Source: Escherichia phage vB_EcoM-E33. Taken from it: DNA of 64,000 bases. Below the pieces are notes generated by a model that had not been told where the DNA came from, did no database searches, and saw nothing but the letters and a program-made list of their open reading frames with translations. The number at the start of each line of letters is the position of its first letter. Position 1 is the first letter of the stretch. The DNA lies in the sequence record OL780484.1; one strand, given 5' to 3'. Below are positions 496 to 55,905 of the stretch, piece after piece. A program made the translations under genes and the position numbers.

Positions 496-515
496 AAAGG
501 GACTTCGGTCCCTTT
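496..515 (+). terminator. Stem-loop aaagggac-UUCG-gtcccttt, terminator-like
   Basis: Perfect 8-bp stem with UUCG tetraloop, T-run 3' side, directly after stop at 493. Confidence 0.5.
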
Positions 516-544
516 TGGAGTATAATGATTCATCAACAAACAAA

Positions 545-574
545 AGACAATCACTCGTCTATAAAGGAAATGAA
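545..574 (+). promoter_or_regulatory. Putative gene 43 translational operator (hairpin agac-aatcactc-gtct adjacent to SD AAGGAAA)
   Basis: 4-bp stem/8-nt loop immediately 5' of the gene 43 Shine-Dalgarno; T4 gp43 is known to autoregulate by binding a hairpin+SD operator. Confidence 0.35.
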
Positions 575-3286
575 ATGCAAGAATTCTATTTGACAGTCGA
601 ACAAATCGGTGATAATATTCTCGAACGTTACATCGATAAAAATGGTAACGAACGTAGTCGTGAAGTTCCTTACAAGCCTACAATGTTTATGCATGCTAAT
701 CCAGAGCAAGCCGTAAAATACATTGATATCTATGGTAAGGGTTGTGTTAAGAAAGAATTCGACTCTATGCGTGATGCATCCCAATGGATGAAACGTATGG
801 ACGATATGGGTCTCGAAGCCCTGGGTATGGACGACTATAAATTAGCCTATTTGTCTGATACCTATCGTAAAGAAATCAGATATGATTCTTCTAAGATTCG
901 TATTGCTAACTTCGACATCGAGGTAACATCTCCTGATGGATTCCCTGAACCAGCTCAGGCTAAACATCCTATCGATGCCATTACCCACTACGACTCGATT
1001 GACGATAAATTCTATGTATTCGACCTTTTAGTTTCGCCTTATGGTACTGTCGAAGAGTGGTCGATTAAAATCGCTGAGAAACTCCAAGACGAAGGCGGTG
1101 ACGAAGTTCCACAAGAAATCATTGACAAAATCGTTTATCTTCCGTTTAATTCTGAAGAAGAAATGATGCTTGAGTACTTGAATTTCTGGCAACAGAAAAC
1201 TCCTGTGATTTTGACTGGATGGAACGTTGAGTCGTTTGACGTACCGTACGTTTATAACCGTCTGAAAAATCTGTTCGGTGAGAACACTGCTAAGCGATTA
1301 AGCCCACATCGTAAAACTCGTGTTAAAGTTATTGAGAACATGTACGGGGCTCGTGAAATCATTACATTGTTCGGTATCTCTGTTCTGGATTATATCGACC
1401 TCTATAAAAAATTCAGCTTCACCAACCAGCCTTCTTATTCTCTGGATTATGTTTCTGAATATGAATTGAAAGTAGGTAAGTTGAAATATGATGGCCCAAT
1501 CTCCAAGTTACGTGAGACGAACCACCAACGATATATTTCCTATAACATTATCGACGTATATCGTGTAGTGCAGATTGATATGAAGCGTCAGTTCATTCTT
1601 CTGAGTTTGGACATGGGTTATTATGCCAAGATGCAGATTCAGTCGGTGTTCAGCCCAATTAAGACTTGGGACGCTATTATCTTTAATAGCCTTAAAGAAC
1701 AAGGCAAGGTAATTCCACAAGCTCGCTCACACGTGGTCCAACCTTATCCTGGTGCTTTCGTTAAGGAACCGATTCCTAACGCTTACAAATATGTAATGAG
1801 TTTCGACCTTACATCTCTGTATCCGAGTATCATTCGACAAGTGAATATAAGCCCAGAGACCATCGCAGGGACATTCGCTAACGCACCGATACATGAATAT
1901 ATTGCCGGAACTGCTCAGCGTCCTAGCGACACCTACAGTTGCTCTCCTAACGGCATGATGTACTATAAAGACCGTGAAGGTGTGATTCCGACAGAAATCA
2001 CCAAGGTATTCTTGCAGCGTAAAGAACATAAAGGTTACATGCTTGCAGCTCAACGTAATGGTGAGTTAATTAAAGAAGCATTGGAAAATCCTAATCTCTC
2101 AGTTGATAGTCCACTGGATATCGATTATCGTTTTGACTTCTCTGACGAAATCAAAGCCAAGATTAAAGCACTGTCAGCGCCTTCTTTAAGAGAAATGTTG
2201 AAGAAAGCCGAGCTCACTGAAGTTGCAGGTAACACTGCTCAGATTAACCGTAAGTTGCTTATCAACTCCCTTTATGGTGCACTTGGTAACGTATGGTTCC
2301 GTTACTATGACCTCAGGAACGCAACTGCAATCACATTGTTTGGTCAAATGGCCCTCCAATGGATTGAACGTAAGGTTAACGAATATCTGAATAGCGTGTG
2401 TAAGACTGAAAACCAGAAGTTCGTGCTCTACGGTGATACTGACTCCATTTATGTTAAGGCAGATGCAATCATCAATAAAGTAGGCGAAGATAAATTCCGT
2501 GATACTAACCACTGGGTCGACTTCTTAGATAAATTTGCACGTGAACGTATGGAACCAGCTATTGATGCAGGCTTCCGTGAGATGTGCGAATACATGAACA
2601 ACAAACAACACTTGATGTTCATGGACCGAGAAGCTATCGCAGGTCCTCCACTTGGTTCTAAAGGCCTTGGTGGATTCTGGACAGGCAAGAAACGTTATGC
2701 ACTTAACGTTTGGGACATGGAAGGTACTCGTTATGCTGAACCACACTTGAAAATCATGGGTCTCGAAACTCAGAAATCAAGTACACCTAAAGCAGTTCAG
2801 AAAGCTCTGAAGGAATGTATCCGTCGTATGCTTCAGGAAGGCGAGGCATCTTTGCAAGAATATTTCAAACAGTTTAATAAGGAATTTAACGAACTCGATT
2901 ATGTAAGCATTGCAGCAGTATCCAGTGCTAACAACATCGAGAAATATAATGAAGGTGGATTCCCGGGTTCTAAATGTCCATACCACATCAAAGGTTGCTT
3001 AGCTTACATGCGTGCTTCTGCAGGTGATTTGACTATGCCTCGTATCGTTGATGGTGAAAAGGTATATGTACTGCCACTTAAAGAAGGCAACCCGTTCGGT
3101 GAAGCTTGTATGGCATGGCCGTCAGGTATTGAACTTCCGGTTCAGATTCGTGACCAAGTCCTCCGTTGGATGGACTACAACGTACTGTTCCAAAAGACCT
3201 TTATCAAACCTCTGACCGGTTTTACTGAGTCTGCTAAAATCGACTACGAGAAAAAAGCAACATTATTTGATATGTTCGACTTTTAA
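575..3286 (+). CDS. 43: DNA polymerase gp43 (family B, 3'-5' exonuclease + polymerase)
   Basis: 903-aa product starting MQEFYLTVEQIGDN…; strong similarity by recollection to T4/RB69 gp43 incl. exo motifs (FDIEV) and polymerase motifs (SLYPSII, YGDTDS); SD AAGGAAA 7 nt upstream of ATG 575. Confidence 0.97.
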   Translation: MQEFYLTVEQIGDNILERYIDKNGNERSREVPYKPTMFMHANPEQAVKYIDIYGKGCVKKEFDSMRDASQWMKRMDDMGLEALGMDDYKLAYLSDTYRKEIRYDSSKIRIANFDIEVTSPDGFPEPAQAKHPIDAITHYDSIDDKFYVFDLLVSPYGTVEEWSIKIAEKLQDEGGDEVPQEIIDKIVYLPFNSEEEMMLEYLNFWQQKTPVILTGWNVESFDVPYVYNRLKNLFGENTAKRLSPHRKTRVKVIENMYGAREIITLFGISVLDYIDLYKKFSFTNQPSYSLDYVSEYELKVGKLKYDGPISKLRETNHQRYISYNIIDVYRVVQIDMKRQFILLSLDMGYYAKMQIQSVFSPIKTWDAIIFNSLKEQGKVIPQARSHVVQPYPGAFVKEPIPNAYKYVMSFDLTSLYPSIIRQVNISPETIAGTFANAPIHEYIAGTAQRPSDTYSCSPNGMMYYKDREGVIPTEITKVFLQRKEHKGYMLAAQRNGELIKEALENPNLSVDSPLDIDYRFDFSDEIKAKIKALSAPSLREMLKKAELTEVAGNTAQINRKLLINSLYGALGNVWFRYYDLRNATAITLFGQMALQWIERKVNEYLNSVCKTENQKFVLYGDTDSIYVKADAIINKVGEDKFRDTNHWVDFLDKFARERMEPAIDAGFREMCEYMNNKQHLMFMDREAIAGPPLGSKGLGGFWTGKKRYALNVWDMEGTRYAEPHLKIMGLETQKSSTPKAVQKALKECIRRMLQEGEASLQEYFKQFNKEFNELDYVSIAAVSSANNIEKYNEGGFPGSKCPYHIKGCLAYMRASAGDLTMPRIVDGEKVYVLPLKEGNPFGEACMAWPSGIELPVQIRDQVLRWMDYNVLFQKTFIKPLTGFTESAKIDYEKKATLFDMFDF

Positions 3287-3726: not shown

Positions 3727-4227
3727 ATGAAAAAGTTAATTATCGCAATGAGTATGCTCCTATCAGGTTGCGCGGTCCAATATGGTGATACAGTTTCGGC
3801 CGATGAAGTTGGTAAAGCTCGTATCGCAGCTGAACAGAAACAATTCGATGGCGAAATGAAATTCCGTGCAGGTTCTGGACTTGTGTACACCCGAGCTAAT
3901 AATCAATGCGGTAATAACTGTGCAAAATATGCTCAACAAGAAATCGAATTCCAACGTGAACAAGAGTCCAAGCGTGAAGCGGTACTAGCCAAACACCAGG
4001 CAGAAATGAAGCGTCAAGATGATTTGTACAAAAAGCAGAAACTGTATGCGATGTGCGTAAACCATATCAATCTACAGATTTCCATCCACGAGGCTCGTTA
4101 TTACGAAATGCTCGAAACCGAGAGCTTCGGTAAAGCTCGTGATTATAAGAAACAAATCGATAAGCTCAAGACCAAAGTACCGGCGGCAATAGAACAGTGT
4201 ATTGAAATCGGTAAAGATAAGATTTAA
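3727..4227 (+). CDS. Putative lipoprotein (signal peptide with lipobox LLSGC), coiled-coil rich
   Basis: N-terminus MKKLIIAMSMLLSGC; SD TGAGGA upstream. Confidence 0.6.
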   Translation: MKKLIIAMSMLLSGCAVQYGDTVSADEVGKARIAAEQKQFDGEMKFRAGSGLVYTRANNQCGNNCAKYAQQEIEFQREQESKREAVLAKHQAEMKRQDDLYKKQKLYAMCVNHINLQISIHEARYYEMLETESFGKARDYKKQIDKLKTKVPAAIEQCIEIGKDKI

Positions 4228-4287
4228 GCAATACCAATTTATTAAAAATAGTGTATAATGTACCTACATTCACTTGAGGAACAGATA

Positions 4288-5961
4288 ATGAAAAAGGTTG
4301 TTATTTTAGGCGCGGGTCTTGGCTCACGGTTGTATCCAATTACCAACGAAATCCCGAAGGTACTGGTTAACTACAAACAACATACTGTATTAAAACATTT
4401 GTATGATTTGTATAGTAATCAATCAGATGAAATTATTCTGGTTATTCACAGCAAATTTAACGACCTCGTTAAAGGCTATATTAAATCCATTAACATGATT
4501 AATAGTGATAAGCCTAAATTCACTATTCGTAACGTTGATGTTGCCAATGGTTCGGCTCATGCTATCGATTGCATTGCCGAAGATATCATTGGGCACAATG
4601 TCTTGTTTAACTGGTGTGATATTATTCCTGAAGGTCATAAAGTTGAGTGGGATAACGACTACTGTTATACCTATGGGACTGACTGTCGTTTTACATTTGA
4701 AGAACCGTACTTGCGTGAAATTGGTACCGGTGGTGGCGTAGTTGGCTTGTATCAGGTGGCTAATTGGACAGGTTTCGACCGTTCTAATTATGGTGAAGAC
4801 CTTGCTGACAACCTGGATTCAATGGTCCATTTGACTGAACGTAAGTTAGACTTTGTAGTTGATGTTGGTGACAAACTGAAACTGGCTAAGGCGCATGAAG
4901 ATTCTGAAATTAACCGTGAATTTAATAAATTAGAGTTCACCGAGAATCTAGCTATTAAAGTACCAACTAACGAATTGGGTAAAGAAATCCAATCTAAAGA
5001 AATCAATTGGTATAATTCTATTGATTCCGAATTCGTTCCTAGCATTGTAGACTTTGCTCCAGGCGAATTCATTAAAATGGAACGTATCTTTGGTCGAACC
5101 ATGGCAGATGCCTACCGGTTTATGTCTAAAGAAACTAAAGTCCTAATGGTTTATAAGGTTATTAGTGCATTACGTTCGTTCGGTGGAACTATCGATAATC
5201 CGTCCGATGAGCAATGGTATTCTGATGTTAAGAAAGAAGTATTGGACAAGGTCCTTATTCGTAATGCTTCTATTGCCGGATTGATTGAAGGCTTTGCTCC
5301 ACAGGGTATTACCCATGTTAACGACTTCAAGGTAGGCGACCCAGAAAAACTTCTTCGTCACGCCTTAGAAATTCTGTCTGAACATAAAGAACCGTACCAA
5401 CTTATTCATGGCGACCCGCACTACAGTAATATTATGTTGTCGGACGAAGGTAATATTAAAATCATCGACCCACGTGGTTATTTTGGTAATAGTTCTAAAG
5501 GCCCTGCGATTTATGATGAAGCTAAGGTGCTTTATTCTATCGATGGTTATGACAAATTTAACTCTGACCCTCTATGGGGTGGCTTAACTCGTAACGGAAC
5601 TCGTGTATTCGTTGATATTGAAAAGGTTATGCCTTTAGATGATATTCCGATGTGTACATTTAAGCACAAGCTCTGGATTGCTGTTATCTGGATGGCATTG
5701 GCAGGTTACTTTAAAAATAACCCTCTGAAAGCTCTGGGCGCTTATTACAATGGGCTATATCAACTGAGTGTGCTGCTGAAGCGGCATCCTCGTAAGCGTA
5801 AGCTTATCACAGGTGAATTCGTTGATGAAGTTCGCGACCCTATCACGGCTCAAATTATCACTCGTTGTCCTGATAAGTGGGTTTTGCTTGACCAGGAAAC
5901 TGGTGTAAAATATAAACCTACAGGTTCTACCGAACTCCACAAACAATGGAAGAAAATTTAA
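4288..5961 (+). CDS. Bifunctional sugar-1-phosphate nucleotidyltransferase / APH-choline-kinase-like kinase (557 aa)
   Basis: N-term motif ILGAGLGSRLYPIT…PKVLV (canonical G-x-G-x-R-x-P-K of NDP-sugar pyrophosphorylases); C-term catalytic loop LIHGDPHYSNIML…IIDPRGYFG (HGDxxxxN + D motif of APH/ChoK/anomeric sugar kinases); ATG 4288 with SD GAGGAA. Confidence 0.7.
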   Translation: MKKVVILGAGLGSRLYPITNEIPKVLVNYKQHTVLKHLYDLYSNQSDEIILVIHSKFNDLVKGYIKSINMINSDKPKFTIRNVDVANGSAHAIDCIAEDIIGHNVLFNWCDIIPEGHKVEWDNDYCYTYGTDCRFTFEEPYLREIGTGGGVVGLYQVANWTGFDRSNYGEDLADNLDSMVHLTERKLDFVVDVGDKLKLAKAHEDSEINREFNKLEFTENLAIKVPTNELGKEIQSKEINWYNSIDSEFVPSIVDFAPGEFIKMERIFGRTMADAYRFMSKETKVLMVYKVISALRSFGGTIDNPSDEQWYSDVKKEVLDKVLIRNASIAGLIEGFAPQGITHVNDFKVGDPEKLLRHALEILSEHKEPYQLIHGDPHYSNIMLSDEGNIKIIDPRGYFGNSSKGPAIYDEAKVLYSIDGYDKFNSDPLWGGLTRNGTRVFVDIEKVMPLDDIPMCTFKHKLWIAVIWMALAGYFKNNPLKALGAYYNGLYQLSVLLKRHPRKRKLITGEFVDEVRDPITAQIITRCPDKWVLLDQETGVKYKPTGSTELHKQWKKI

Positions 5962-6320
5962 TGCATCTGTGTTTTGATATCGATAATACCATTACTCACT
6001 GGCAAGATGACCGTGATTACGAAAACTTTAAACCGGACACCGAAATGGTGTCCATGATTAATAAGCTTTATGATGAAGGGTACGAGATTACCTTGTTCAC
6101 TGCCCGTGGTATGACTTCATGCGGCCCGGGTCGAATCTTGGTTGAAGTAGTTCCTGCATTAGTTAAGAACCTTGAAAAGATTGGATTGAAATATCACAAT
6201 CTGCTTACACATAAGCCGAGTTATACTTTTATCATCGATGACCGAGCAATCCGTCCTGACCACTTTAAAGAAATGGTTCGTGAAGGAACTCTTGAAACCT
6301 ATAAGGCATATCATCCGTGA
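5946..6320 (+). CDS. Small HAD-superfamily phosphatase-like protein (124 aa)
   Basis: Motif I FDIDNTIT (DxDxT), motif II T in ITLFTARG, motif IV FIIDDR; start overlaps upstream stop. Confidence 0.6.
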   Translation: MEENLMHLCFDIDNTITHWQDDRDYENFKPDTEMVSMINKLYDEGYEITLFTARGMTSCGPGRILVEVVPALVKNLEKIGLKYHNLLTHKPSYTFIIDDRAIRPDHFKEMVREGTLETYKAYHP

Positions 6321-6853
6321 AACCAAAAATCATTGTTATCGACGGCCCGGATAATTCCGGGAAGTCTACTTTAATTGAATCACTTTTATCTGATAAGAAA
6401 TATCGTCTTATTGATTTCCCTAAAAAGATTAATGGCAAATGCATTTCATTAGGGACCGATAATGACAAGGCTTTAGTCGAGACGTTGTATAAGTTTTTAG
6501 ACCCTAATTTCGTTTACATCCTTGACCGTGGTTATCCAAGTAATATTGTTTACTCGGGATTCCTTCGCGGTGAAATGGACCCTTATGTAGAACTGGAAGA
6601 TTGGAAAAGGTTTAAATCTGAATTCAATATTATTGAGGTTATTTTAACCCGTAATCCACTGGATAAAGACTTTGAAGATGACCTTATTAAATTAACCAAA
6701 GATGAGTTCAACCTAACTATCCGCCAATACGAAACATGTTTTGAAAACGTGTTTAAAATCTTAAATCACGACGGCCATAATAACTTGCTTAACGTCGATA
6801 TGGTAGAATTAAAACGTCTGAATGAATATATTGAAAATAAGGTGAATAAATGA
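6317..6853 (+). CDS. P-loop kinase, thymidylate/deoxynucleotide-kinase-like (178 aa)
   Basis: Walker A IVIDGPDNSGKST; LDRGYPSNIVYSG resembles dTMP kinase DRY/S…Y motif; GTG start overlapping upstream stop. Confidence 0.65.
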   Translation: MKPKIIVIDGPDNSGKSTLIESLLSDKKYRLIDFPKKINGKCISLGTDNDKALVETLYKFLDPNFVYILDRGYPSNIVYSGFLRGEMDPYVELEDWKRFKSEFNIIEVILTRNPLDKDFEDDLIKLTKDEFNLTIRQYETCFENVFKILNHDGHNNLLNVDMVELKRLNEYIENKVNK

Positions 6854-7548
6854 AACACATTACCGCTGTTAGTTTTGAAAACGCGTTTAAGCAAATGAAC
6901 GAAGAAATCCTGGAAGCTCCACAGTTTGCAGTTGATTCTCGTATCGGCCGTTGTTATGAAATTGGTTCTGCTTCGGTAGAAGTACTGGATGCAAGCACCT
7001 ATAAATTCACCGACCCTCGTATTAATCGTATCAACTATGATTATGCCGAATCTTTCTGGAAGTTTATGATTTCTGGTGGTACTGACGCCGCCGAAGCATT
7101 TAAGGAATACCCTAATGTTGCTAAGTTCATTGATAAGCCGAAAAGTGACGTATTGCCTGCAAACTTCAACACTTTCTATGGACCTAGAATTGTGGCCCAA
7201 CTCCCAGCCTTACTTAAAGAGCTTAAAGAGAAGCCTAACTCAAGACGAGTTGTGTTCCAAATTCTCCAAGAACAAGACCAAGCCCTCCTTGATTCTGACG
7301 AATCCTTAGAATATCCATGTACTGATTCAGTGACATATTATATTCGTGATGGACGTCTTTATGCACATACCCATATGCGTTCACAGAACTGTGCTATTGT
7401 TATGCAGCTGGATTTCTATCTGCAGGGTAAACTGATGGCCTTTATTGCTGAACAGTGTGGTGTTGGTCTGGGTACGTATTCCCATACTATGGTTAGTGCA
7501 CACGTATTTGAACGTGATTTTGACTACGTTCGAGGATTCCTGAAATGA
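6850..7548 (+). CDS. 42: dCMP hydroxymethylase gp42 (thymidylate-synthase fold)
   Basis: 232 aa; position between imm and uvsX as T4 gene 42; TS-like C-terminal region; start overlaps upstream stop. Confidence 0.8.
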   Translation: MKHITAVSFENAFKQMNEEILEAPQFAVDSRIGRCYEIGSASVEVLDASTYKFTDPRINRINYDYAESFWKFMISGGTDAAEAFKEYPNVAKFIDKPKSDVLPANFNTFYGPRIVAQLPALLKELKEKPNSRRVVFQILQEQDQALLDSDESLEYPCTDSVTYYIRDGRLYAHTHMRSQNCAIVMQLDFYLQGKLMAFIAEQCGVGLGTYSHTMVSAHVFERDFDYVRGFLK

Positions 7549-8438
7549 GTTTGTTTATCGTTCCTATTTTCAGTATGCGTAGTTACGAAACAGGTGAATA
7601 TGCCGTCCTTAAGGACGGTAATTTTCAACTCCATTTAAACCGTGCTTGCCAAGGTGATTATCTGGCTTATCCTAGAAATTCGAGCGATATCAAAGAATGC
7701 ATTGAATTATTTCCTGAACTGAATTTTGTACCTCTTTGGTATAAAGAAAATGCTTATGAAACTCGTAAACATTTTTGGTCTGAAAATGAGTTCGTTGTTG
7801 ATTCGTTAATCGAATACTATGACTGCTCAGGATTGGTAACCGATATCACAGGTTATGATGGCACTCAGACTGTACAATTCAACTTTAACATTACAATGGA
7901 CCCTGAAGTTCCTCGTTATTATATCGACGAGTTTATTGATACCGACGTGTCCTCAGTTGAACGTTCGATTTATACCACAGTCCTGAATCAATGCCAGAAA
8001 GACGTCCTGGTGTCACGAGGTGCGTCCTCTGATAAGATTTTTGTAGACCAAAAGGTAATTAATCCGGCAGTAATTGAGCGTTACTCTGAAGGCCTAGCGC
8101 CTATTAAAATTGATGGTATTTTCCATCCATTCCGTATCTCTGATAAATGTTATCAATTCGAAAGAGTTGTAGACCAAGCTGCGGCTGAAGGTTCTCGCCT
8201 TTATATCACCGATCCGAATGATTCATTTAAGCGTGAAGACTATCGTCCTGATGTAGAGATTATTAAATTCAAACCGAGTAAGGTTGAATATTATCAGATT
8301 CTGAAATCAAGACCTCATATCATTTATCATGAGAATCCCAGTTTAGTATTTCATCCTGGCCTGGCTGAATTCATTTATTTCGGTGCCCACATCCATTCTG
8401 AGCACGAAATGCCAAGTTATGAGGACGTGGTCCTTTAA
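7545..8438 (+). CDS. Hypothetical 297-aa protein occupying the T4 beta-glucosyltransferase locus (candidate DNA-modifying transferase)
   Basis: Located between 42 and uvsX where T4 encodes beta-gt; no resemblance by eye to T4 alpha/beta-gt; start overlaps gene 42 stop (coupled). Confidence 0.6.
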   Translation: MSLFIVPIFSMRSYETGEYAVLKDGNFQLHLNRACQGDYLAYPRNSSDIKECIELFPELNFVPLWYKENAYETRKHFWSENEFVVDSLIEYYDCSGLVTDITGYDGTQTVQFNFNITMDPEVPRYYIDEFIDTDVSSVERSIYTTVLNQCQKDVLVSRGASSDKIFVDQKVINPAVIERYSEGLAPIKIDGIFHPFRISDKCYQFERVVDQAAAEGSRLYITDPNDSFKREDYRPDVEIIKFKPSKVEYYQILKSRPHIIYHENPSLVFHPGLAEFIYFGAHIHSEHEMPSYEDVVL

Positions 8439-8515: not shown

Positions 8516-9688
8516 ATGTCTGATTTAAAATCCCGTTTGATTAAAGCTTCTACTTCTAAAATGACCGCCGACCTGACCAAATCTAAATTGTTTAATGGTC
8601 GTGACGAAGTTCCTACTCGTATCCCTATGCTGAATATTGCATTAGGCGGTGCGTTGAATGCAGGCTTACAATCAGGTTTGACAATCTTTGCTGCTCCATC
8701 TAAACACTTTAAAACGTTGTTTGGACTTACCATGGTTGCGGCATATATGAAGAAATATCCAGACGCAATTTGTTTGTTCTATGACTCTGAGTTTGGTGCT
8801 TCAGAATCTTATTTCCGTTCGATGGGTGTTGATTTGGAACGTGTGGTTCATACACCAATCCAGTCAGTCGAACAGCTTAAAGTTGATATGACCAACCAGT
8901 TAGAAGAAATTACTCGTGGCGAAAAGGTTATTATCTTTATCGACTCCATTGGTAACACTGCTTCTAAGAAAGAAACCGAAGATGCTTTGAACGAGAAAGT
9001 TGTAGGTGATATGACTCGTGCTAAATCACTGAAATCTCTGTTCCGTATCGTAACACCTTATCTGACCATCAAAGATATCCCTTGTGTAGCAATTAACCAC
9101 ACGGCTATGGAAATTGGTGGAATGTACCCTAAAGAGATTATGGGTGGTGGTACTGGTATTCTGTACTCTGCTTCTACCGTGTTCTTTATCTCTAAACGTC
9201 AGGTTAAAGATGGTACTGAGCTCACTGGTTATGACTTCACACTGAAGGCCGAGAAATCTCGTACGGTTAAAGAGAAATCAACGTTCCCGATTACAGTGAA
9301 CTTCGAAGGTGGTATCGACCCATTCAGTGGATTGCTTGAAATGGCTACTGATATTGGCTTTGTCGTGAAACCTAAAGCTGGCTGGTATAATCGTGCATTC
9401 CTTGACGAAACCACAGGCGAAATGGTTCAAGAAGAAAAAGCATGGCGTGCTAAAGCTACCGATTGTGTCGAGTTCTGGGGACCGCTGTTTAAACATGCCC
9501 CGTTCCGTGAAGCAATCGAGAATAAGTATAAGCTCGGTGCAATTAATTCTATTAAAGAAGTTGACGATGCAGTGAACGACCTTATTAACTCTCGTGTCTC
9601 TAAGAACGTTGCTGTTAAATTAGGTGGTAATGCCCAAAGCGCCGCTGATATCGAAAACGATTTGGAAGAGATGAATTTAGATGACTGA
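8516..9688 (+). CDS. uvsX: Recombinase UvsX (RecA-like)
   Basis: MSDLKSRLIKASTSK… near-identical N-terminus to T4 UvsX; Walker A GPSKHFKT region; 390 aa. Confidence 0.97.
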   Translation: MSDLKSRLIKASTSKMTADLTKSKLFNGRDEVPTRIPMLNIALGGALNAGLQSGLTIFAAPSKHFKTLFGLTMVAAYMKKYPDAICLFYDSEFGASESYFRSMGVDLERVVHTPIQSVEQLKVDMTNQLEEITRGEKVIIFIDSIGNTASKKETEDALNEKVVGDMTRAKSLKSLFRIVTPYLTIKDIPCVAINHTAMEIGGMYPKEIMGGGTGILYSASTVFFISKRQVKDGTELTGYDFTLKAEKSRTVKEKSTFPITVNFEGGIDPFSGLLEMATDIGFVVKPKAGWYNRAFLDETTGEMVQEEKAWRAKATDCVEFWGPLFKHAPFREAIENKYKLGAINSIKEVDDAVNDLINSRVSKNVAVKLGGNAQSAADIENDLEEMNLDD

Positions 9689-14677: not shown

Positions 14678-14685
14678 TATTTATA
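14678..14685 (-). promoter_or_regulatory. T4-type late promoter TATAAATA (minus strand)
   Basis: Reverse complement of tatttata at 14678-14685; ~20 nt upstream of the antisense gene SD. Confidence 0.5.
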
Positions 14686-14718
14686 ACTTGCTTTACAAAT
14701 TAATGATACAATTATCCC

Positions 14719-15375
14719 ATGAATTACGAAAAAATATACCAGGAATTAATATCTAAAGGAAAATTAAGAGGTTCTAAGCGGTCTTTATCATATTATACGG
14801 AAGAACACCATGTTATACCTAGATGTATGAATGGTTCTGATGATAAAAACAATTTAGTTGCTTTATTGCCAAGAGAACACTTTGTAGCTCATAGGCTTTT
14901 AACAAAAATATATCCCGAAGTAAAAGGTCTACATTATGCTGTTAATTTAATGAGATATAATAAAGGAGTTAAATTAACTAGTAGAACTATAGCCACGTTA
15001 AGAGAAAATAACGCTAAAGCATTTTCAGGAAAAAATAACCCGATGTTTGGTAAACCTTCCTGGATTAGAGGGATGAAAACTCCTGAAGAAACTAAAGCCA
15101 AAATGCGCCTGGCTCATAAAGATAAAATTATATCTGATGAAGCCAAGGCCAATATGAGTAAAGCTAGAAAAGGAAGATTTAGTGGTAAAGATTCCCCTAG
15201 ATATGGTTTGCCGAATCCTAGGCGTGGAGAAATATGGAATAGTTACGATATGCTTTACGAATTATGGGTTTACAATAATAAACCTAAACGCACCAAATTT
15301 AATAAAATAGCTGTTGATAATGGATATCCTGATATTTGTTATCGACGAATGATAGAAAACTTTAATAGGAAATAA
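14719..15375 (+). CDS. Free-standing HNH homing endonuclease (218 aa)
   Basis: HNH motif EEHHVIPRCMNGSDDKNNLVALLPREHFVAH; C-terminal repeated GKNNPMFGKP / GKDSPRYGLPNP DNA-binding-like modules; AT-rich coding sequence; inserted between 61 and 56. Confidence 0.8.
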   Translation: MNYEKIYQELISKGKLRGSKRSLSYYTEEHHVIPRCMNGSDDKNNLVALLPREHFVAHRLLTKIYPEVKGLHYAVNLMRYNKGVKLTSRTIATLRENNAKAFSGKNNPMFGKPSWIRGMKTPEETKAKMRLAHKDKIISDEAKANMSKARKGRFSGKDSPRYGLPNPRRGEIWNSYDMLYELWVYNNKPKRTKFNKIAVDNGYPDICYRRMIENFNRK

Positions 15376-15379
15376 TATA

Positions 15380-15901
15380 ATGGCATTTTTTAACGAATGT
15401 AGTGGTTTGATTTCTGGTGTTGATAAAGCTGAGGAAGCTTATTTTAATGCTCTGATTCATGAAGATAAAGACCCTCTGCAGGTTATGCTTGATATGCAGA
15501 AATCATTACAGGTCCGTTTGGCTACTGAAAAATCTGAATTTAACTCTAACCCCGATGAACTGGCTACTGCAGGTCAAGTTGTCGATTGGCTTCGCAACCA
15601 GAAAGATTATATTGATGACGAATTCCGTGAACTGTTGACTTCTCTTGGTGGCATGAGTAATGGTGAGAAAGCCGCATCTAGCGTCTGGAAGCCTTGGAAA
15701 GCTCAGCACGGTGAATTCCGTAACCGTCGTATTGACGAACTCTCTCCTGAAGACCAGCTTGAAATTAAATTCGAGATGATTGATATTCTGCACTTTGTTC
15801 TGAATATGTTCCAAGGTCTTGGTCTGTCAGCCGAAGAAATCTTTAAGTTGTATTACCTGAAAAACGCTGAGAACTTTGCTCGTCAAGACCGAGGTTATTA
15901 A
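15380..15901 (+). CDS. 56: dCTP pyrophosphatase gp56 (MazG-like dCTPase/dUTPase)
   Basis: 173 aa vs T4 gp56 171 aa; synteny; all-alpha NTP-PPase-like sequence. Confidence 0.75.
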   Translation: MAFFNECSGLISGVDKAEEAYFNALIHEDKDPLQVMLDMQKSLQVRLATEKSEFNSNPDELATAGQVVDWLRNQKDYIDDEFRELLTSLGGMSNGEKAASSVWKPWKAQHGEFRNRRIDELSPEDQLEIKFEMIDILHFVLNMFQGLGLSAEEIFKLYYLKNAENFARQDRGY

Positions 15902-27486: not shown

Positions 27487-27530
27487 TAAATATGTATGGT
27501 ACTAATTGGTGCCATACAAAAGGAGACTTT

Positions 27531-27692
27531 ATGAGAAAGTACTGGGTTACGCTCGTCACCGGTGAATACGGTTATATCTGGACTGATACTAGACCTCAGT
27601 TTGCAGAATACGTGACTATTACAGTCGAGACATGGGACGGCGAAGTTTACCAAACCCGCGGACAAGTCTATAAGGTCGATTCAAGTAACTAA
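27531..27692 (+). CDS. Small hypothetical protein (53 aa)
   Basis: ATG 27531 after SD AGGAG; ORF track 27492..27692. Confidence 0.4.
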   Translation: MRKYWVTLVTGEYGYIWTDTRPQFAEYVTITVETWDGEVYQTRGQVYKVDSSN

Positions 27693-27700
27693 ACTAATAA

Positions 27701-27719
27701 GGGCCTTCGGGCCCTTTTC
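27701..27719 (+). terminator. Terminator-like hairpin (gggcc-UUCG-ggccc + TTTT)
   Basis: Stem-loop after stop at 27692. Confidence 0.5.
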
Positions 27720-27769
27720 GGGGTTTACAAAGACCTGTGGTTATGATAGGATTATCTAGAGGTGAGAAT

Positions 27770-28093
27770 ATGATTATGCAAGATAACAGTATAGTGAACA
27801 CTGACAATCTAGCTTTATCCTTTATGGAAACGGCCATTCGTAACTGTAAAGATGAAGGAGTAGTGACTACAAGCGGTAAGGGACTTGAATACCTTAAGGC
27901 TGTAAAATCTATTGCCTTAAAGATTAAAGATAACCAGGCGCTCTCTCCTGTGGTCCAGGAAAAGGTTTTAGAGATAATGTATCGCCACAGAGAGCACAAA
28001 AGTACAATGGGTTCTATGAGAAGAATTCTGGCTGAACTAGGTTCTACCAGAGAATATGTTCAACATGAGGTAGTTAAAAATGACAAACTTTAA
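27770..28093 (+). CDS. Hypothetical protein (107 aa)
   Basis: ATG 27770 after SD GAGGTGAG; early promoter upstream. Confidence 0.45.
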   Translation: MIMQDNSIVNTDNLALSFMETAIRNCKDEGVVTTSGKGLEYLKAVKSIALKIKDNQALSPVVQEKVLEIMYRHREHKSTMGSMRRILAELGSTREYVQHEVVKNDKL

Positions 28094-28283
28094 AGTGAAT
28101 ATTGATTTGTTCGATAAAGCCGTCCATAAAGAATTCCGGTTAATCCAACGATTTTTTGATATCAATGCGGCTGAGGATTTTAAAGAACGCTTTAAAGAAA
28201 TCAGATATAAAATACTCAACGACATCGCTACTAAGGACGAGCTCCTTGAAGTGGCAGACATTTTTAAACGTAACCTGAATTGA
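28080..28283 (+). CDS. Hypothetical protein (67 aa)
   Basis: ORF track. Confidence 0.4.
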   Translation: MTNFKVNIDLFDKAVHKEFRLIQRFFDINAAEDFKERFKEIRYKILNDIATKDELLEVADIFKRNLN

Positions 28284-28290
28284 GAAAAAT

Positions 28291-54222: not shown

Positions 54223-55905
<1,683 letters not shown>

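What the first reader, a model, noticed from the sequence alone, without database searches (positions are those of the whole stretch)
7545..8438. Beta-glucosyltransferase locus occupied by an unrelated 297-aa protein
In T4 the gene between 42 and uvsX is beta-gt (351 aa). Here that slot holds a shorter protein with no similarity I can see to T4 alpha-gt or beta-gt, translationally coupled to gene 42. This makes it the prime candidate for the DNA-sugar transferase of this phage, possibly a new glycosyltransferase type.
Basis: inference. Interest (0 to 1): 0.72.

Follow-up and report, generated by a model that had tools for sequence, protein, structure and literature searches.

The report
Hydroxycytosine DNA arabinosyltransferase candidate, already described
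This gene is one phage genus's copy of a recently described family of predicted sugar-transferases thought to attach the first arabinose to 5-hydroxycytosine (not hydroxymethylcytosine) in phage DNA, so the gene is real but was already reported in 2025-2026.

Summary
The ORF is real: 7545..8438 (+), 297 aa, start overlapping the stop of the upstream thymidylate-synthase-family gene (ATGA), under purifying selection (pN/pS about 0.07-0.11), with no detectable sequence similarity to T4 alpha-gt or beta-gt.

The window is a Dhakavirus (99% to phage QL01). The upstream "gene 42" is the orthologue of RB69 gp48 (79% identity, Asn at the D169 position). RB69 gp48 is a flavin-dependent 5-hydroxy-dCMP synthase, not a hydroxymethylase.

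The ORF is the full-length orthologue (67%) of RB69 ORF047c+046c, "gp46:47, arabinosyltransferase 1" of Lee et al. (NAR 2026). An MSA-based AlphaFold model (pLDDT 95) is a GT-B fold. The four genes upstream include the published UDP-arabinofuranose genes (AfhE-like, AfhF-like) and a nucleotide kinase.

In 45 of 47 informative viral loci the family sits directly behind an Asn-type ThyA homologue.

New here: this phage type has no second transferase, no alpha/beta-gt and no arabinose-5-P isomerase. That predicts mono-arabinosyl-5-hydroxycytosine made with host arabinose-5-P.

Transfer activity is unproven in anything I could read. One paper assigns the orthologue a UDP-xylose pyrophosphorylase activity instead.

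The parts
7545..8438 (+). The finding: 297-aa predicted GT-B glycosyltransferase, orthologue of RB69 gp46:47 (arabinosyltransferase 1), DLP3 gp79 and Thanatos TH1_063. Proposed base-proximal arabinofuranosyltransferase acting on 5-hydroxycytosine.
   Evidence: ORF. 68.7% and 64% identity to RB69 ORF047c and ORF046c, and 67% over the full length. AlphaFold pLDDT 95.1, pTM 0.90. Foldseek hits GT-B glycosyltransferases and epimerases at probability 1.00. PHROG 3891.
6850..7548 (+).
   Evidence: 78.8% identity to RB69 ORF048c but 25% to T4 gp42. Motif MRSQN (Asn at E. coli ThyA D169) as in RB69 and Thanatos, against RSND in T4 gp42. The signature and enzyme activity are from PMC13326640.
6317..6853 (+). 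Nucleotide (thymidylate-kinase-like) kinase, orthologue of RB69 gp45. Presumed to phosphorylate the modified dCMP.
   Evidence: PHROG 761 E=9e-40. 37% identity to RB69 ORF045c. Adjacent to the transferase in most of the 49 loci.
5946..6320 (+). HAD-family phosphatase, orthologue of RB69 gp51 and HY126 AfhF (Araf-1,5-P2 to Araf-1-P).
   Evidence: 62% identity to RB69 ORF051c. NCBIfam capsule biosynthesis phosphatase TIGR01689, E=1.6e-14 but 53.9 bits against a curated cutoff of 162, so sub-threshold. Function is from PMC13326640 section 27.
4288..5961 (+). Bifunctional sugar kinase / sugar-1-P uridylyltransferase, orthologue of RB69 gp52:53 and HY126 AfhE (makes UDP-arabinofuranose). The mechanical ORF starts at 4258; the likely start is 4288.
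   Evidence: Pfam NTP_transferase E=2.5e-8 plus APH kinase E=9e-6. 44% and 41% identity to RB69 ORF053c and ORF052c. GxGxR motif at the N-terminus from 4288.
15380..15901 (+). dCTPase (gp56 type) that supplies dCMP and removes dCTP.
   Evidence: Pfam dUTPase_2 and PRA-PH hits. QL01 annotates the counterpart as 'gp56 dCTPase'.
27487..28290 (+). Topoisomerase-to-rIIA interval, where RB69 carries its second arabinosyltransferase (ORF003c). Here it holds only a DUF7367 ORF (27737..28093) and rIIA.1 (28080..28277), so there is no second transferase.
   Evidence: RB69 map. tblastn with ORF003c finds no hit in the window or the rest of QL01. Pfam DUF7367.
8516..9688 (+). uvsX, downstream landmark.
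   Evidence: 90% identity to RB69 UvsX.
515..3286 (+). DNA polymerase gp43, upstream landmark of the modification cluster.
   Evidence: ORF. Maps onto the QL01 DNA polymerase gene.

Best explanation
The 297-aa protein is the base-proximal ('first') glycosyltransferase of the arabinosyl-5-hydroxycytosine DNA modification pathway. It is the Dhakavirus orthologue of RB69 gp46:47. Proposed pathway: the phage dCTPase makes dCMP, and the upstream ThyA homologue hydroxylates it to 5-hydroxy-dCMP (flavin and O2). The adjacent kinase and host enzymes raise it to the triphosphate, and gp43 incorporates it in place of C. In parallel, host arabinose-5-phosphate (this phage has no isomerase of its own) is converted by the AfhE-like and AfhF-like enzymes to UDP-arabinofuranose. 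The GT-B enzyme binds UDP-Araf in its C-terminal Rossmann domain (conserved PFRxSDK, K246 and HPG elements). It transfers the arabinofuranose to the 5-OH of hydroxycytosine, most likely on DNA, giving an ether-linked sugar that blocks restriction and CRISPR nucleases. No second or third transferase is detectable, so the predicted end product is mono-arabinosylated 5-hydroxycytosine. Basis of each step: orthology, fold, gene neighbourhood and absence of other transferases were shown here. The 5hodCMP synthase and AfhE/AfhF chemistry come from experiments on orthologues in the literature. The transfer reaction itself, its donor, its acceptor form (DNA or nucleotide) and the mono-arabinosyl end product are inferred.
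For: Full-length 67% identity to RB69 ORF047c+046c, which Lee et al. call arabinosyltransferase 1. Identity is 51% to the Thanatos orthologue, and that phage is mono-arabinosylated with a single candidate GT. The high-confidence model (pLDDT 95.1) matches only GT-B proteins: MshA 3c4q TMq 0.59, 7qsg 0.58, BshA 0.56-0.57, PimB', and UDP-GlcNAc 2-epimerases, all at probability 1.00. It also matches phage and giant-virus glycosyltransferases, including DNA alpha-glucosyltransferases. It is the last gene of a block of five overlapping genes, AfhE-like, HAD, kinase, ThyA homologue and GT. In 45 of 47 informative IMG/VR loci a ThyA homologue lies directly upstream on the same strand. In 44 of those 45 it carries Asn at the D169 position, and the junction is usually overlapping or abutting. 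The same arrangement occurs in Rhizobium phage RL38J1, where gp216 is an experimentally shown 5hodCMP synthase and gp215 is called galactosyltransferase 1. No alpha-gt, beta-gt, RB69 ORF003c homologue or paralogue exists in the window plus the rest of QL01, and no GT Pfam domain appears in the other large proteins tested.
Against: No transfer activity has been shown for any member in the literature I could read. [quoted passage not shown] Brandt et al. reported UDP-xylose pyrophosphorylase activity, and no transfer to plasmid DNA, for the Thanatos orthologue. The top Foldseek E-values belong to UDP-GlcNAc 2-epimerases, which share the GT-B fold but are not transferases. The family is unusually acidic for a DNA-binding enzyme (pI 4.8, net charge -19; family median pI 5.2). 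The DNA of a Dhakavirus has not been chemically analysed in any paper I found. He et al. 2026 and Mahler et al. 2025 may contain direct data, but I could not read them.
Confidence: 0.72

Rival explanations
1. Same enzyme and same donor, but the acceptor is the free mononucleotide. The transferase arabinosylates 5-hydroxy-dCMP as it leaves the synthase. The dedicated adjacent kinase phosphorylates the glycosylated nucleotide, and the polymerase incorporates an already glycosylated dCTP (pre-replicative glycosylation).
For: Lee et al. state that their experiments do not distinguish mononucleotide from post-replicative first arabinosylation, and they found no activity of single transferases on 5hoC-DNA. 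The synthase, transferase and nucleotide kinase form a conserved three-gene unit, mostly with overlapping junctions, even in phages lacking the arabinose genes, although a gp1-type dNMP kinase also exists in QL01. The family is markedly acidic, unlike T4 beta-gt (pI 9.05), T4 alpha-gt (6.1) and RB69 ORF003c (6.3).
Against: All characterised phage DNA glycosylations are post-replicative (established knowledge for T4; restated in PMC13326640). The later arabinose additions were shown to occur on DNA. Net charge and gene adjacency are weak indicators. The extra kinase is equally well explained by gp1 not accepting 5hodCMP.
Confidence: 0.17
2. It is a UDP-pentose pyrophosphorylase (sugar-1-phosphate uridylyltransferase) that makes the activated sugar, as reported for the Thanatos orthologue TH1_063, and some other protein is the transferase.
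For: Brandt et al. detected UDP-xylose by LC-MS/MS from UTP plus xylose-1-P with purified His-tagged TH1_063, and no transfer of xylose to plasmid DNA. TH1_063 corresponds to TH2_066, the 51%-identical orthologue placed directly after the ThyA homologue.
Against: The fold is GT-B, and no sugar-1-P nucleotidyltransferase appears in the top 50 hits listed for either Foldseek search. The GxGxR nucleotidyltransferase signature is absent from this protein and present in the AfhE-like protein of the same operon. The HY126 orthologue of AfhE is reported to have the UDP-arabinose pyrophosphorylase activity. The published control was a no-enzyme reaction only, so co-purified E. coli enzymes are not excluded. 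The plasmid DNA used contained no 5hoC, so the lack of transfer is uninformative. If this were the pyrophosphorylase, the phage would have no detectable transferase at all.
Confidence: 0.06
3. It is a GT-B-fold enzyme that is not a transferase, for example an NDP-sugar epimerase or hydrolysing epimerase that remodels the activated sugar.
For: The best Foldseek E-values (3e-6 to 2e-5) are to non-hydrolysing UDP-GlcNAc 2-epimerases. Lee et al. found the same for RL38J1 gp215.
Against: TM-scores are higher for GT4 transferases (0.56-0.59) than for the epimerases (0.44-0.53). In the viral library every named hit outside the family but two (FkbM-type methyltransferase entries) is a glycosyltransferase. 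There is no Pfam Epimerase_2 hit. The published pathway yields UDP-Araf directly and needs no epimerase. The phage would again be left without a transferase. The family also occurs with non-arabinose sugars, always next to the base-hydroxylating enzyme rather than next to sugar genes.
Confidence: 0.04
4. It is an 'RNA polymerase binding protein', as several GenBank records annotate it.
For: That product name is attached to orthologues in phages C6, SHP1, IME341 and vB_EcoM_005, and appears as a note in Thanatos-2.
Against: It has no similarity to the real rpbA product of QL01 (best blastp E=36). Most records say 'hypothetical protein'. The fold and context point to a glycosyltransferase. The label looks like a propagated annotation error.
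Confidence: 0.01

Closest known systems
RB69 gp46:47 (ORF047c+ORF046c, split by a sequencing error), 'arabinosyltransferase 1' of Lee et al., NAR 2026 (PMC13326640)
   Same: Full-length orthologue at 67% identity. Directly downstream of the 5hodCMP synthase. Same GT-B prediction. Same UDP-Araf genes in the cluster.
   Different: In RB69 the kinase follows the transferase, whereas here it precedes the synthase. RB69 also has ORF050c/049c, its own arabinose-5-P isomerase (ORF055c) and a second transferase (ORF003c), and it makes mono- and di-arabinosyl 5hoC. None of these extras is present here.
Shewanella phage Thanatos TH1_063 (TH2_066 in Thanatos-2)
   Same: 51% identical, 300 aa, same position after the ThyA homologue. 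Thanatos is described as mono-arabinosylated with a single ara-GT, which is the situation predicted for this phage.
   Different: It was published as a UDP-xylose pyrophosphorylase on the basis of one in vitro assay. That function does not fit the fold.
Acinetobacter phage DLP3 gp79 ('alpha-arabinosyltransferase 1') and relatives (KARL-1, Acj61, Acj9)
   Same: About 47-55% identical. The KARL-1 model superposes at TM 0.95. Same synteny.
   Different: Those phages carry one or two further transferases (ORF003c-like hits in L030, L031, L034, L052), and DLP3 makes tri-arabinosyl 5hoC.
Rhizobium phage RL38J1 gp215 ('galactosyltransferase 1')
   Same: Distant member (24.5% identity, E=4e-4). It lies between the experimentally shown 5hodCMP synthase gp216 (4-nt overlap) and a kinase.
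   Different: Different phage family (Pootjesviridae), hexose rather than arabinose, 343 aa.
T4 beta-glucosyltransferase (CAZy GT63) and alpha-glucosyltransferase (GT72)
   Same: Same genomic neighbourhood as beta-gt (after the ThyA-family gene, before uvsX). Same overall GT-B architecture and the same biological role of sugar-coating a C5-oxygenated cytosine.
   Different: No detectable sequence relationship. The acceptor is 5-hydroxy- rather than 5-hydroxymethyl-cytosine. The donor is UDP-arabinofuranose made by the phage rather than host UDP-glucose. It is about 50-100 residues shorter and much more acidic.
Bacterial GT4-type retaining GT-B transferases (MshA 3c4q, BshA 6n1x, PimB' 3oka)
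   Same: Best structural matches by TM-score, and all are UDP/GDP-sugar dependent.
   Different: 7-13% identity, no Pfam Glycos_transf_1 hit, smaller. I could not check the catalytic motif equivalence.

Membership tests
5-hydroxycytosine base-proximal glycosyltransferase family (RB69 gp46:47 / DLP3 gp79 / TH1_063 / RL38J1 gp215; PHROG 3891) | Full-length sequence homology to the named members | tested here: met
   67% to RB69 ORF047c+046c, 51% to Thanatos, 47-50% to Acinetobacter phages, 24.5% to RL38J1. PHROG 3891 E=4e-158.
5-hydroxycytosine base-proximal glycosyltransferase family (RB69 gp46:47 / DLP3 gp79 / TH1_063 / RL38J1 gp215; PHROG 3891) | Two-Rossmann-domain GT-B fold | tested here: met
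   AlphaFold pLDDT 95.1, pTM 0.90. Foldseek probability 1.00 to GT-B proteins in PDB and BFVD. This is a predicted structure, not a solved one.
5-hydroxycytosine base-proximal glycosyltransferase family (RB69 gp46:47 / DLP3 gp79 / TH1_063 / RL38J1 gp215; PHROG 3891) | Encoded directly downstream of a ThyA homologue with the 5hodCMP-synthase signature (Asn at E. coli D169) | tested here: met
   ATGA overlap with the upstream gene, which has MRSQN. The same arrangement is found in 45 of 47 informative loci, 44 of them with Asn.
5-hydroxycytosine base-proximal glycosyltransferase family (RB69 gp46:47 / DLP3 gp79 / TH1_063 / RL38J1 gp215; PHROG 3891) | Co-occurrence with UDP-arabinofuranose genes (AfhE-like bifunctional enzyme, AfhF-like HAD phosphatase) in the arabinose-using subgroup | tested here: met
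   4288..5961 and 5946..6320.
5-hydroxycytosine base-proximal glycosyltransferase family (RB69 gp46:47 / DLP3 gp79 / TH1_063 / RL38J1 gp215; PHROG 3891) | Catalyses transfer of the first sugar to the 5-OH of 5-hydroxycytosine | not testable with these tools
   No member has a demonstrated activity in the papers I could read.
T4 beta-glucosyltransferase (GT63) | Sequence homology to T4 beta-gt | tested here: not met
   tblastn best E=1.3; hhalign probability 0.13%.
T4 beta-glucosyltransferase (GT63) | Acceptor is 5-hydroxymethylcytosine made by a gp42-type dCMP hydroxymethylase | tested here: not met
   The partner enzyme is the 5hodCMP-synthase type (79% to RB69 gp48, Asn signature), not the gp42 type (25%).
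T4 alpha-glucosyltransferase (GT72) | Sequence homology to T4 alpha-gt | tested here: not met
   hhalign probability 0.32%. No hit in the window or QL01 beyond a 36-residue chance match at E=0.06.
RB69 ORF003c-type second arabinosyltransferase (the gp3 / DLP3 gp76-77 type) | Sequence homology to RB69 ORF003c | tested here: not met
   hhalign probability 0.25%. They are distinct families that share only the fold (rank 28 is a 366-aa Shigella phage SSE1 protein, which I infer to be of the ORF003c type).
GT4 / Pfam Glycos_transf_1 retaining glycosyltransferases | Pfam family match and EX7E-type catalytic motif | tested here: inconclusive
   No Pfam hit at E<=0.1, and profile versus PDB sequences finds nothing. 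They are nevertheless the best structural neighbours. A conserved HPG-x-x-E segment (H270 invariant; P271, G272 in at least 90% of sequences) lies where that motif would be, but I could not superpose coordinates.
Sugar-1-phosphate nucleotidyltransferases (UDP-sugar pyrophosphorylases) | GT-A-like single Rossmann fold with N-terminal GxGxR(x)nK signature | tested here: not met
   No such fold among the top 50 hits listed in either Foldseek search. The motif is absent here but present in the neighbouring AfhE-like protein.
Non-hydrolysing UDP-GlcNAc 2-epimerases | Pfam Epimerase_2 match and epimerase catalytic residues | tested here: inconclusive
   Fold similarity is present (best E=3.2e-6, TMq 0.44-0.53), but there is no Pfam match. 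Catalytic residues were not checked.

The most novel reading that the evidence does not exclude
The conserved, mostly translationally coupled three-gene unit (5-hydroxy-dCMP synthase, this transferase, dedicated nucleotide kinase) is a nucleotide-level assembly line. The first sugar would be put on the free mononucleotide, and the replicative polymerase would incorporate an already glycosylated dCTP. That would be the first pre-replicative glycosylation of a DNA precursor, in contrast to every known phage DNA glycosylation. It is compatible with the failure to see activity on 5hoC-DNA, the family's strong acidity and the conservation of the triad irrespective of which sugar is used. None of these is more than a hint, and unread papers (He et al. 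2026; Mahler et al. 2025) may already have settled it.
Probability: 0.15. Interest if true: 0.75.

Novelty: already known. Interest (0 to 1): 0.3.

Why it matters
Arabinosyl-5-hydroxycytosine is a recently recognised phage DNA hypermodification. Papers citing Mahler et al. 2025 describe it as protecting against type II restriction, the glycosylase Brig1 and type I CRISPR-Cas. The enzyme that attaches the first sugar is the one step with no biochemical proof in the accessible literature, and there is a conflicting published assignment for one orthologue.

For this window the practical value is corrected annotation:
- The gene is currently labelled 'hypothetical' or 'RNA polymerase binding protein'.
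- The upstream gene is labelled 'thymidylate synthase' or 'dCMP hydroxymethylase'.
- These phages should not be assumed to carry hmC.

Dhakaviruses appear to carry the most stripped-down version of the pathway: one transferase, no isomerase, no accessory ORF050c/049c. That makes them a convenient minimal system for settling the activity and the acceptor of the first transferase. Dhakavirus phages such as LHE83 are being studied as antibacterial agents against E. coli, so their DNA chemistry also matters for sequencing, engineering and predicting sensitivity to host defences.

Tried and rejected
- **Single-sequence AlphaFold** was useless (pLDDT 31.5). Only the 48-sequence alignment gave a usable model.
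- **Sequence and profile searches** found nothing informative: Pfam, NCBIfam and PDB sequences, and hhalign against T4 alpha-gt, T4 beta-gt and RB69 ORF003c. The family is a sequence orphan.
- **Key papers** could not be opened: Mahler et al. 2025 and He et al. 2026. Searches for the Afh gene names and for HY126 returned only noise or the one citing paper.
- **The promoter/terminator scan** was not above the shuffled expectation (20 found against 17.8 expected) and was not used.
- **The 166-aa ORF in the isomerase slot** was considered as a possible replacement isomerase. I rejected this because it has a lipoprotein signal peptide, no enzyme-family match, and no homologue in the RB69 or Thanatos clusters.
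- **The 'RNA polymerase binding protein' label** was considered and rejected.
Full report
**1. The observation**

Its ATG overlaps the TGA of the upstream 232-aa gene (…CTGAAATGAGT…), with a GAGGA element 9-13 nt upstream. uvsX follows at 8516..9688.

It is a real gene, on four lines of evidence:
- Homologues occur in 356 phage records and in 117 protein clusters down to about 31% identity.
- It matches PHROG 3891 ('unknown function') at E=4e-158.
- Against close relatives, synonymous changes greatly outnumber non-synonymous ones (pN/pS 0.07-0.11).
- The nearest record is Escherichia phage QL01 (99.2% nucleotide identity), genus Dhakavirus.

- tblastn with T4 beta-gt gives nothing better than E=1.3.
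- T4 alpha-gt gives only a 36-residue chance match.
- Profile-to-sequence comparisons give probabilities below 1%.
- Pfam, NCBIfam and PDB sequence searches are empty.

**2. What surrounds it**

The ORF is the last of five tightly packed, overlapping genes between DNA polymerase (515..3286) and uvsX:

| Coordinates | Product | Evidence |
|---|---|---|
| mechanical ORF from 4258, likely start 4288, to 5961 | nucleotidyltransferase + kinase fusion | Pfam NTP_transferase and APH |
| 5946..6320 | HAD phosphatase | sub-threshold NCBIfam capsule biosynthesis phosphatase hit (53.9 bits, cutoff 162) |
| 6317..6853 | thymidylate-kinase-like kinase | PHROG 761 |
| 6850..7548 | ThyA-family enzyme | Pfam Thymidylat_synt |
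| 7545..8438 | the ORF | see above |

Local tblastn with the RB69 proteins gives a one-to-one map:
- ORF053c/052c: 44% and 41%
- ORF051c: 62%
- ORF045c: 37%
- ORF048c: 79%
- ORF047c and ORF046c: 69% and 64%, covering residues 1-179 and 184-297 of the window protein

RB69 ORF047c and ORF046c are one gene split by a sequencing error (Lee et al., PMC13326640).

**3. The upstream gene is not a dCMP hydroxymethylase**

It is 79% identical to RB69 gp48 but only 25% identical over 154 residues to T4 gp42.

Lee et al. showed that RB69 gp48 and DLP3 gp80 make 5-hydroxy-dCMP from dCMP with O2 and a flavin. They proposed Asn at the position of E. coli ThyA D169 as the diagnostic residue.

In my alignment the window protein, RB69 gp48 and the Thanatos homologue read MRS(Q/E)N, where T4 gp42 reads MRSND.

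The base being decorated is therefore 5-hydroxycytosine with the sugar ether-linked directly at C5. It is not hydroxymethylcytosine. The original 'arabinosyl-hmC' assignment for RB69 (PMC6024577) has been corrected in the later papers.

**4. What the protein is**

An AlphaFold2 model built on a 48-sequence alignment is confident throughout (pLDDT 95.1, pTM 0.90). The single-sequence model was useless.

Foldseek against the PDB returns only GT-B-fold, nucleotide-sugar-dependent proteins at probability 1.00:
- UDP-GlcNAc 2-epimerases have the best E-values (3e-6 to 2e-5).
- GT4-type transferases have the best TM-scores: MshA 0.59, the mannosyltransferase 7qsg 0.58, BshA 0.56-0.57, and PimB'.

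Against predicted viral structures:
- The first hits are the family's own members: KARL-1 (TM 0.95), the two RB69 halves, and Serratia phage Muldoon.
- Phage and giant-virus glycosyltransferases follow, including DNA alpha-glucosyltransferases.

The family is new only in the sense that sequence methods cannot connect it to CAZy or Pfam families.

Invariant residues cluster where GT-B enzymes bind the donor: F193-x-P195-F196-R197-x-x-D200 after the first strand of the C-terminal domain, K246, and H270 followed by P271 and G272 (each in at least 90% of sequences). Mapping these to specific roles is inference.

**5. Linkage to the hydroxylating enzyme**

I fetched 49 viral loci encoding relatives (25-99% identity) and searched them with the window's cluster proteins.
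- Two loci are cut at the transferase and are uninformative.
- Of the other 47, 45 have a ThyA homologue directly upstream on the same strand.
- 44 of those 45 have Asn at the signature position; one has Ser.
- In about 40 of them the two genes overlap or lie within about 10 nt (ATGA, TAATG or TGATG junctions).
- The nucleotide kinase is adjacent in most.

The AfhE-like and HAD genes are present only in a subset. A metagenomic clade (L036-L051) keeps the synthase-transferase-kinase triad without them.

In Rhizobium phage RL38J1 the distant member gp215 lies between gp216 and a kinase with a 4-nt overlap. Lee et al. showed gp216 to be a 5hodCMP synthase and labelled gp215 'galactosyltransferase 1'.

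The family thus tracks the hydroxylated base rather than the kind of sugar. That is what one expects of the base-proximal transferase.

**6. What is particular to this phage**

The window plus QL01 positions 1-140,000 together cover a whole QL01-type genome. Across it I found no homologue of:
- T4 alpha-gt or beta-gt;
- RB69 ORF003c, the second arabinosyltransferase, even though its syntenic interval between topoisomerase and rIIA lies in the window at 27487..28290 and holds only a DUF7367 ORF and rIIA.1;
- RB69 ORF055c, the arabinose-5-P isomerase;
- ORF050c (ORF049c, searched against the window only, also has no hit);
- this ORF itself, that is, no paralogue.

Pfam scans of 20 further large proteins gave no glycosyltransferase domain, and the ten gave none either.

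Inference: this phage makes mono-arabinosyl-5-hydroxycytosine, as described for Thanatos, and takes arabinose-5-phosphate from the host KdsD/GutQ isomerases. I found no paper that measured the DNA of a Dhakavirus, so this is a prediction.

A 2021 comparative study had noted groups of T-even relatives with the UDP-arabinose genes but 'no known arabinosyl transferase'. This family resolves that puzzle.

**7. Mechanism and its weak points**

Most likely (about 0.7): the enzyme takes UDP-arabinofuranose and transfers the sugar to the 5-OH of hydroxycytosine. The donor is made by the AfhE-like and AfhF-like proteins; the activities of the HY126 orthologues are summarised.

What is not shown is the transfer itself:
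- Lee et al. saw no activity of individual transferases on 5hoC-DNA, and they say explicitly that they cannot tell whether the first sugar goes on the mononucleotide or on DNA.
- The later sugars are added on DNA.
- The family is consistently acidic (this protein pI 4.83, net charge -19; median 5.18 over 48 members). T4 beta-gt is 9.05, alpha-gt 6.11 and RB69 ORF003c 6.33.

Together with the conserved synthase-transferase-kinase unit, this keeps a nucleotide-level first glycosylation open (about 0.15). These are hints only.

The published alternative is that the Thanatos orthologue is a UDP-xylose pyrophosphorylase. I rate it low for four reasons:
- The fold is wrong for that enzyme class.
- The nucleotidyltransferase signature sits in the neighbouring AfhE-like protein rather than here.
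- The only control in that assay was a no-enzyme reaction.
- The DNA offered as acceptor contained no 5-hydroxycytosine.

**8. Comparison with what is known, and verdict**

The gene works like T4 beta-gt in biological role, and it sits in roughly the same place. It is not a member of that family by sequence, acceptor or donor.

It is a member, by every feature I could test, of the RB69 gp46:47 / DLP3 gp79 / TH1_063 family. That family is described in papers from 2025-2026, and one of them lists Dhakaviruses among the groups carrying the cluster.

Novelty is therefore 'already known'.

Residual interest lies in three things: the still-unproven activity, the open question of the acceptor (DNA or nucleotide), and the use of this minimal single-transferase, isomerase-less cluster as a test system.

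Noticed in passing
window 3727..4227 (+): A 166-aa ORF sits between DNA polymerase and the AfhE-like gene, where RB69 has its arabinose-5-P isomerase. It has a lipoprotein signal peptide (MKKLIIAMSMLLSGC), no significant family match, and no homologue in the RB69 or Thanatos clusters. It is conserved in QL01 (98%). It is probably a membrane or superinfection-type protein rather than a pathway enzyme.
   Followed up: partly
whole window plus QL01 (L005, L008, L009): No phage-encoded arabinose-5-phosphate isomerase (RB69 ORF055c type) is present, although most other phages with this cluster have one. This implies dependence on the host KdsD/GutQ for the arabinose precursor.
   Followed up: partly
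window 14685..15360, ORF 14719..15375 (+): An HNH/NUMOD3 homing-endonuclease ORF lies between the primase and dCTPase genes. It is absent from QL01, where about 44 nt occupy the corresponding position. The adjacent dCTPase gene is only 86% identical to QL01, against 96-99% elsewhere. That pattern is consistent with a homing insertion and co-conversion of the flank.
   Followed up: partly
L036-L051 (IMG/VR metagenomic contigs): A clade of uncultured phages keeps the Asn-type ThyA homologue, the transferase and the kinase as a unit, but has no AfhE-like or HAD genes within 7 kb. This suggests 5-hydroxycytosine decorated with a different, possibly host-supplied, sugar.
   Followed up: no
L054 7001..7855 and L058 4837..5688: Two distant relatives of the transferase (26-30% identity) have no ThyA homologue within the flanks. 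They are instead followed immediately by a homologue of RB69 ORF050c (47-50% identity), the U32-peptidase-like protein that Lee et al. list as 'sugar or heterocycle reductase'. This may be a different pathway using the same transferase scaffold.
   Followed up: no
L057 (ThyA homologue ending at 4307): This is the one ThyA homologue paired with the transferase that has Ser rather than Asn at the diagnostic D169 position (MRSQS). It could make a different C5 substituent.
   Followed up: no
GenBank records for orthologues (phages C6, SHP1, IME341, vB_EcoM_005, Thanatos-2): The family is annotated 'RNA polymerase binding protein' in several records. It has no similarity to the real rpbA product, so this looks like a propagated annotation error. 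The upstream gene is variously labelled thymidylate synthase or dCMP hydroxymethylase, and the HAD phosphatase is labelled 'phosphoheptose isomerase'.
   Followed up: partly
window 4258..4290: The mechanical ORF for the AfhE-like gene starts at 4258. The PHROG profile alignment, the QL01 annotation (557 aa) and the GxGxR motif all fit the ATG at 4288.
   Followed up: yes
window 55048..55905 (+): A canonical thymidylate synthase (Pfam E=2.7e-99) is also present. The phage therefore carries two ThyA-family enzymes with different chemistries, folate-dependent methylation of dUMP and flavin-dependent hydroxylation of dCMP.
   Followed up: no
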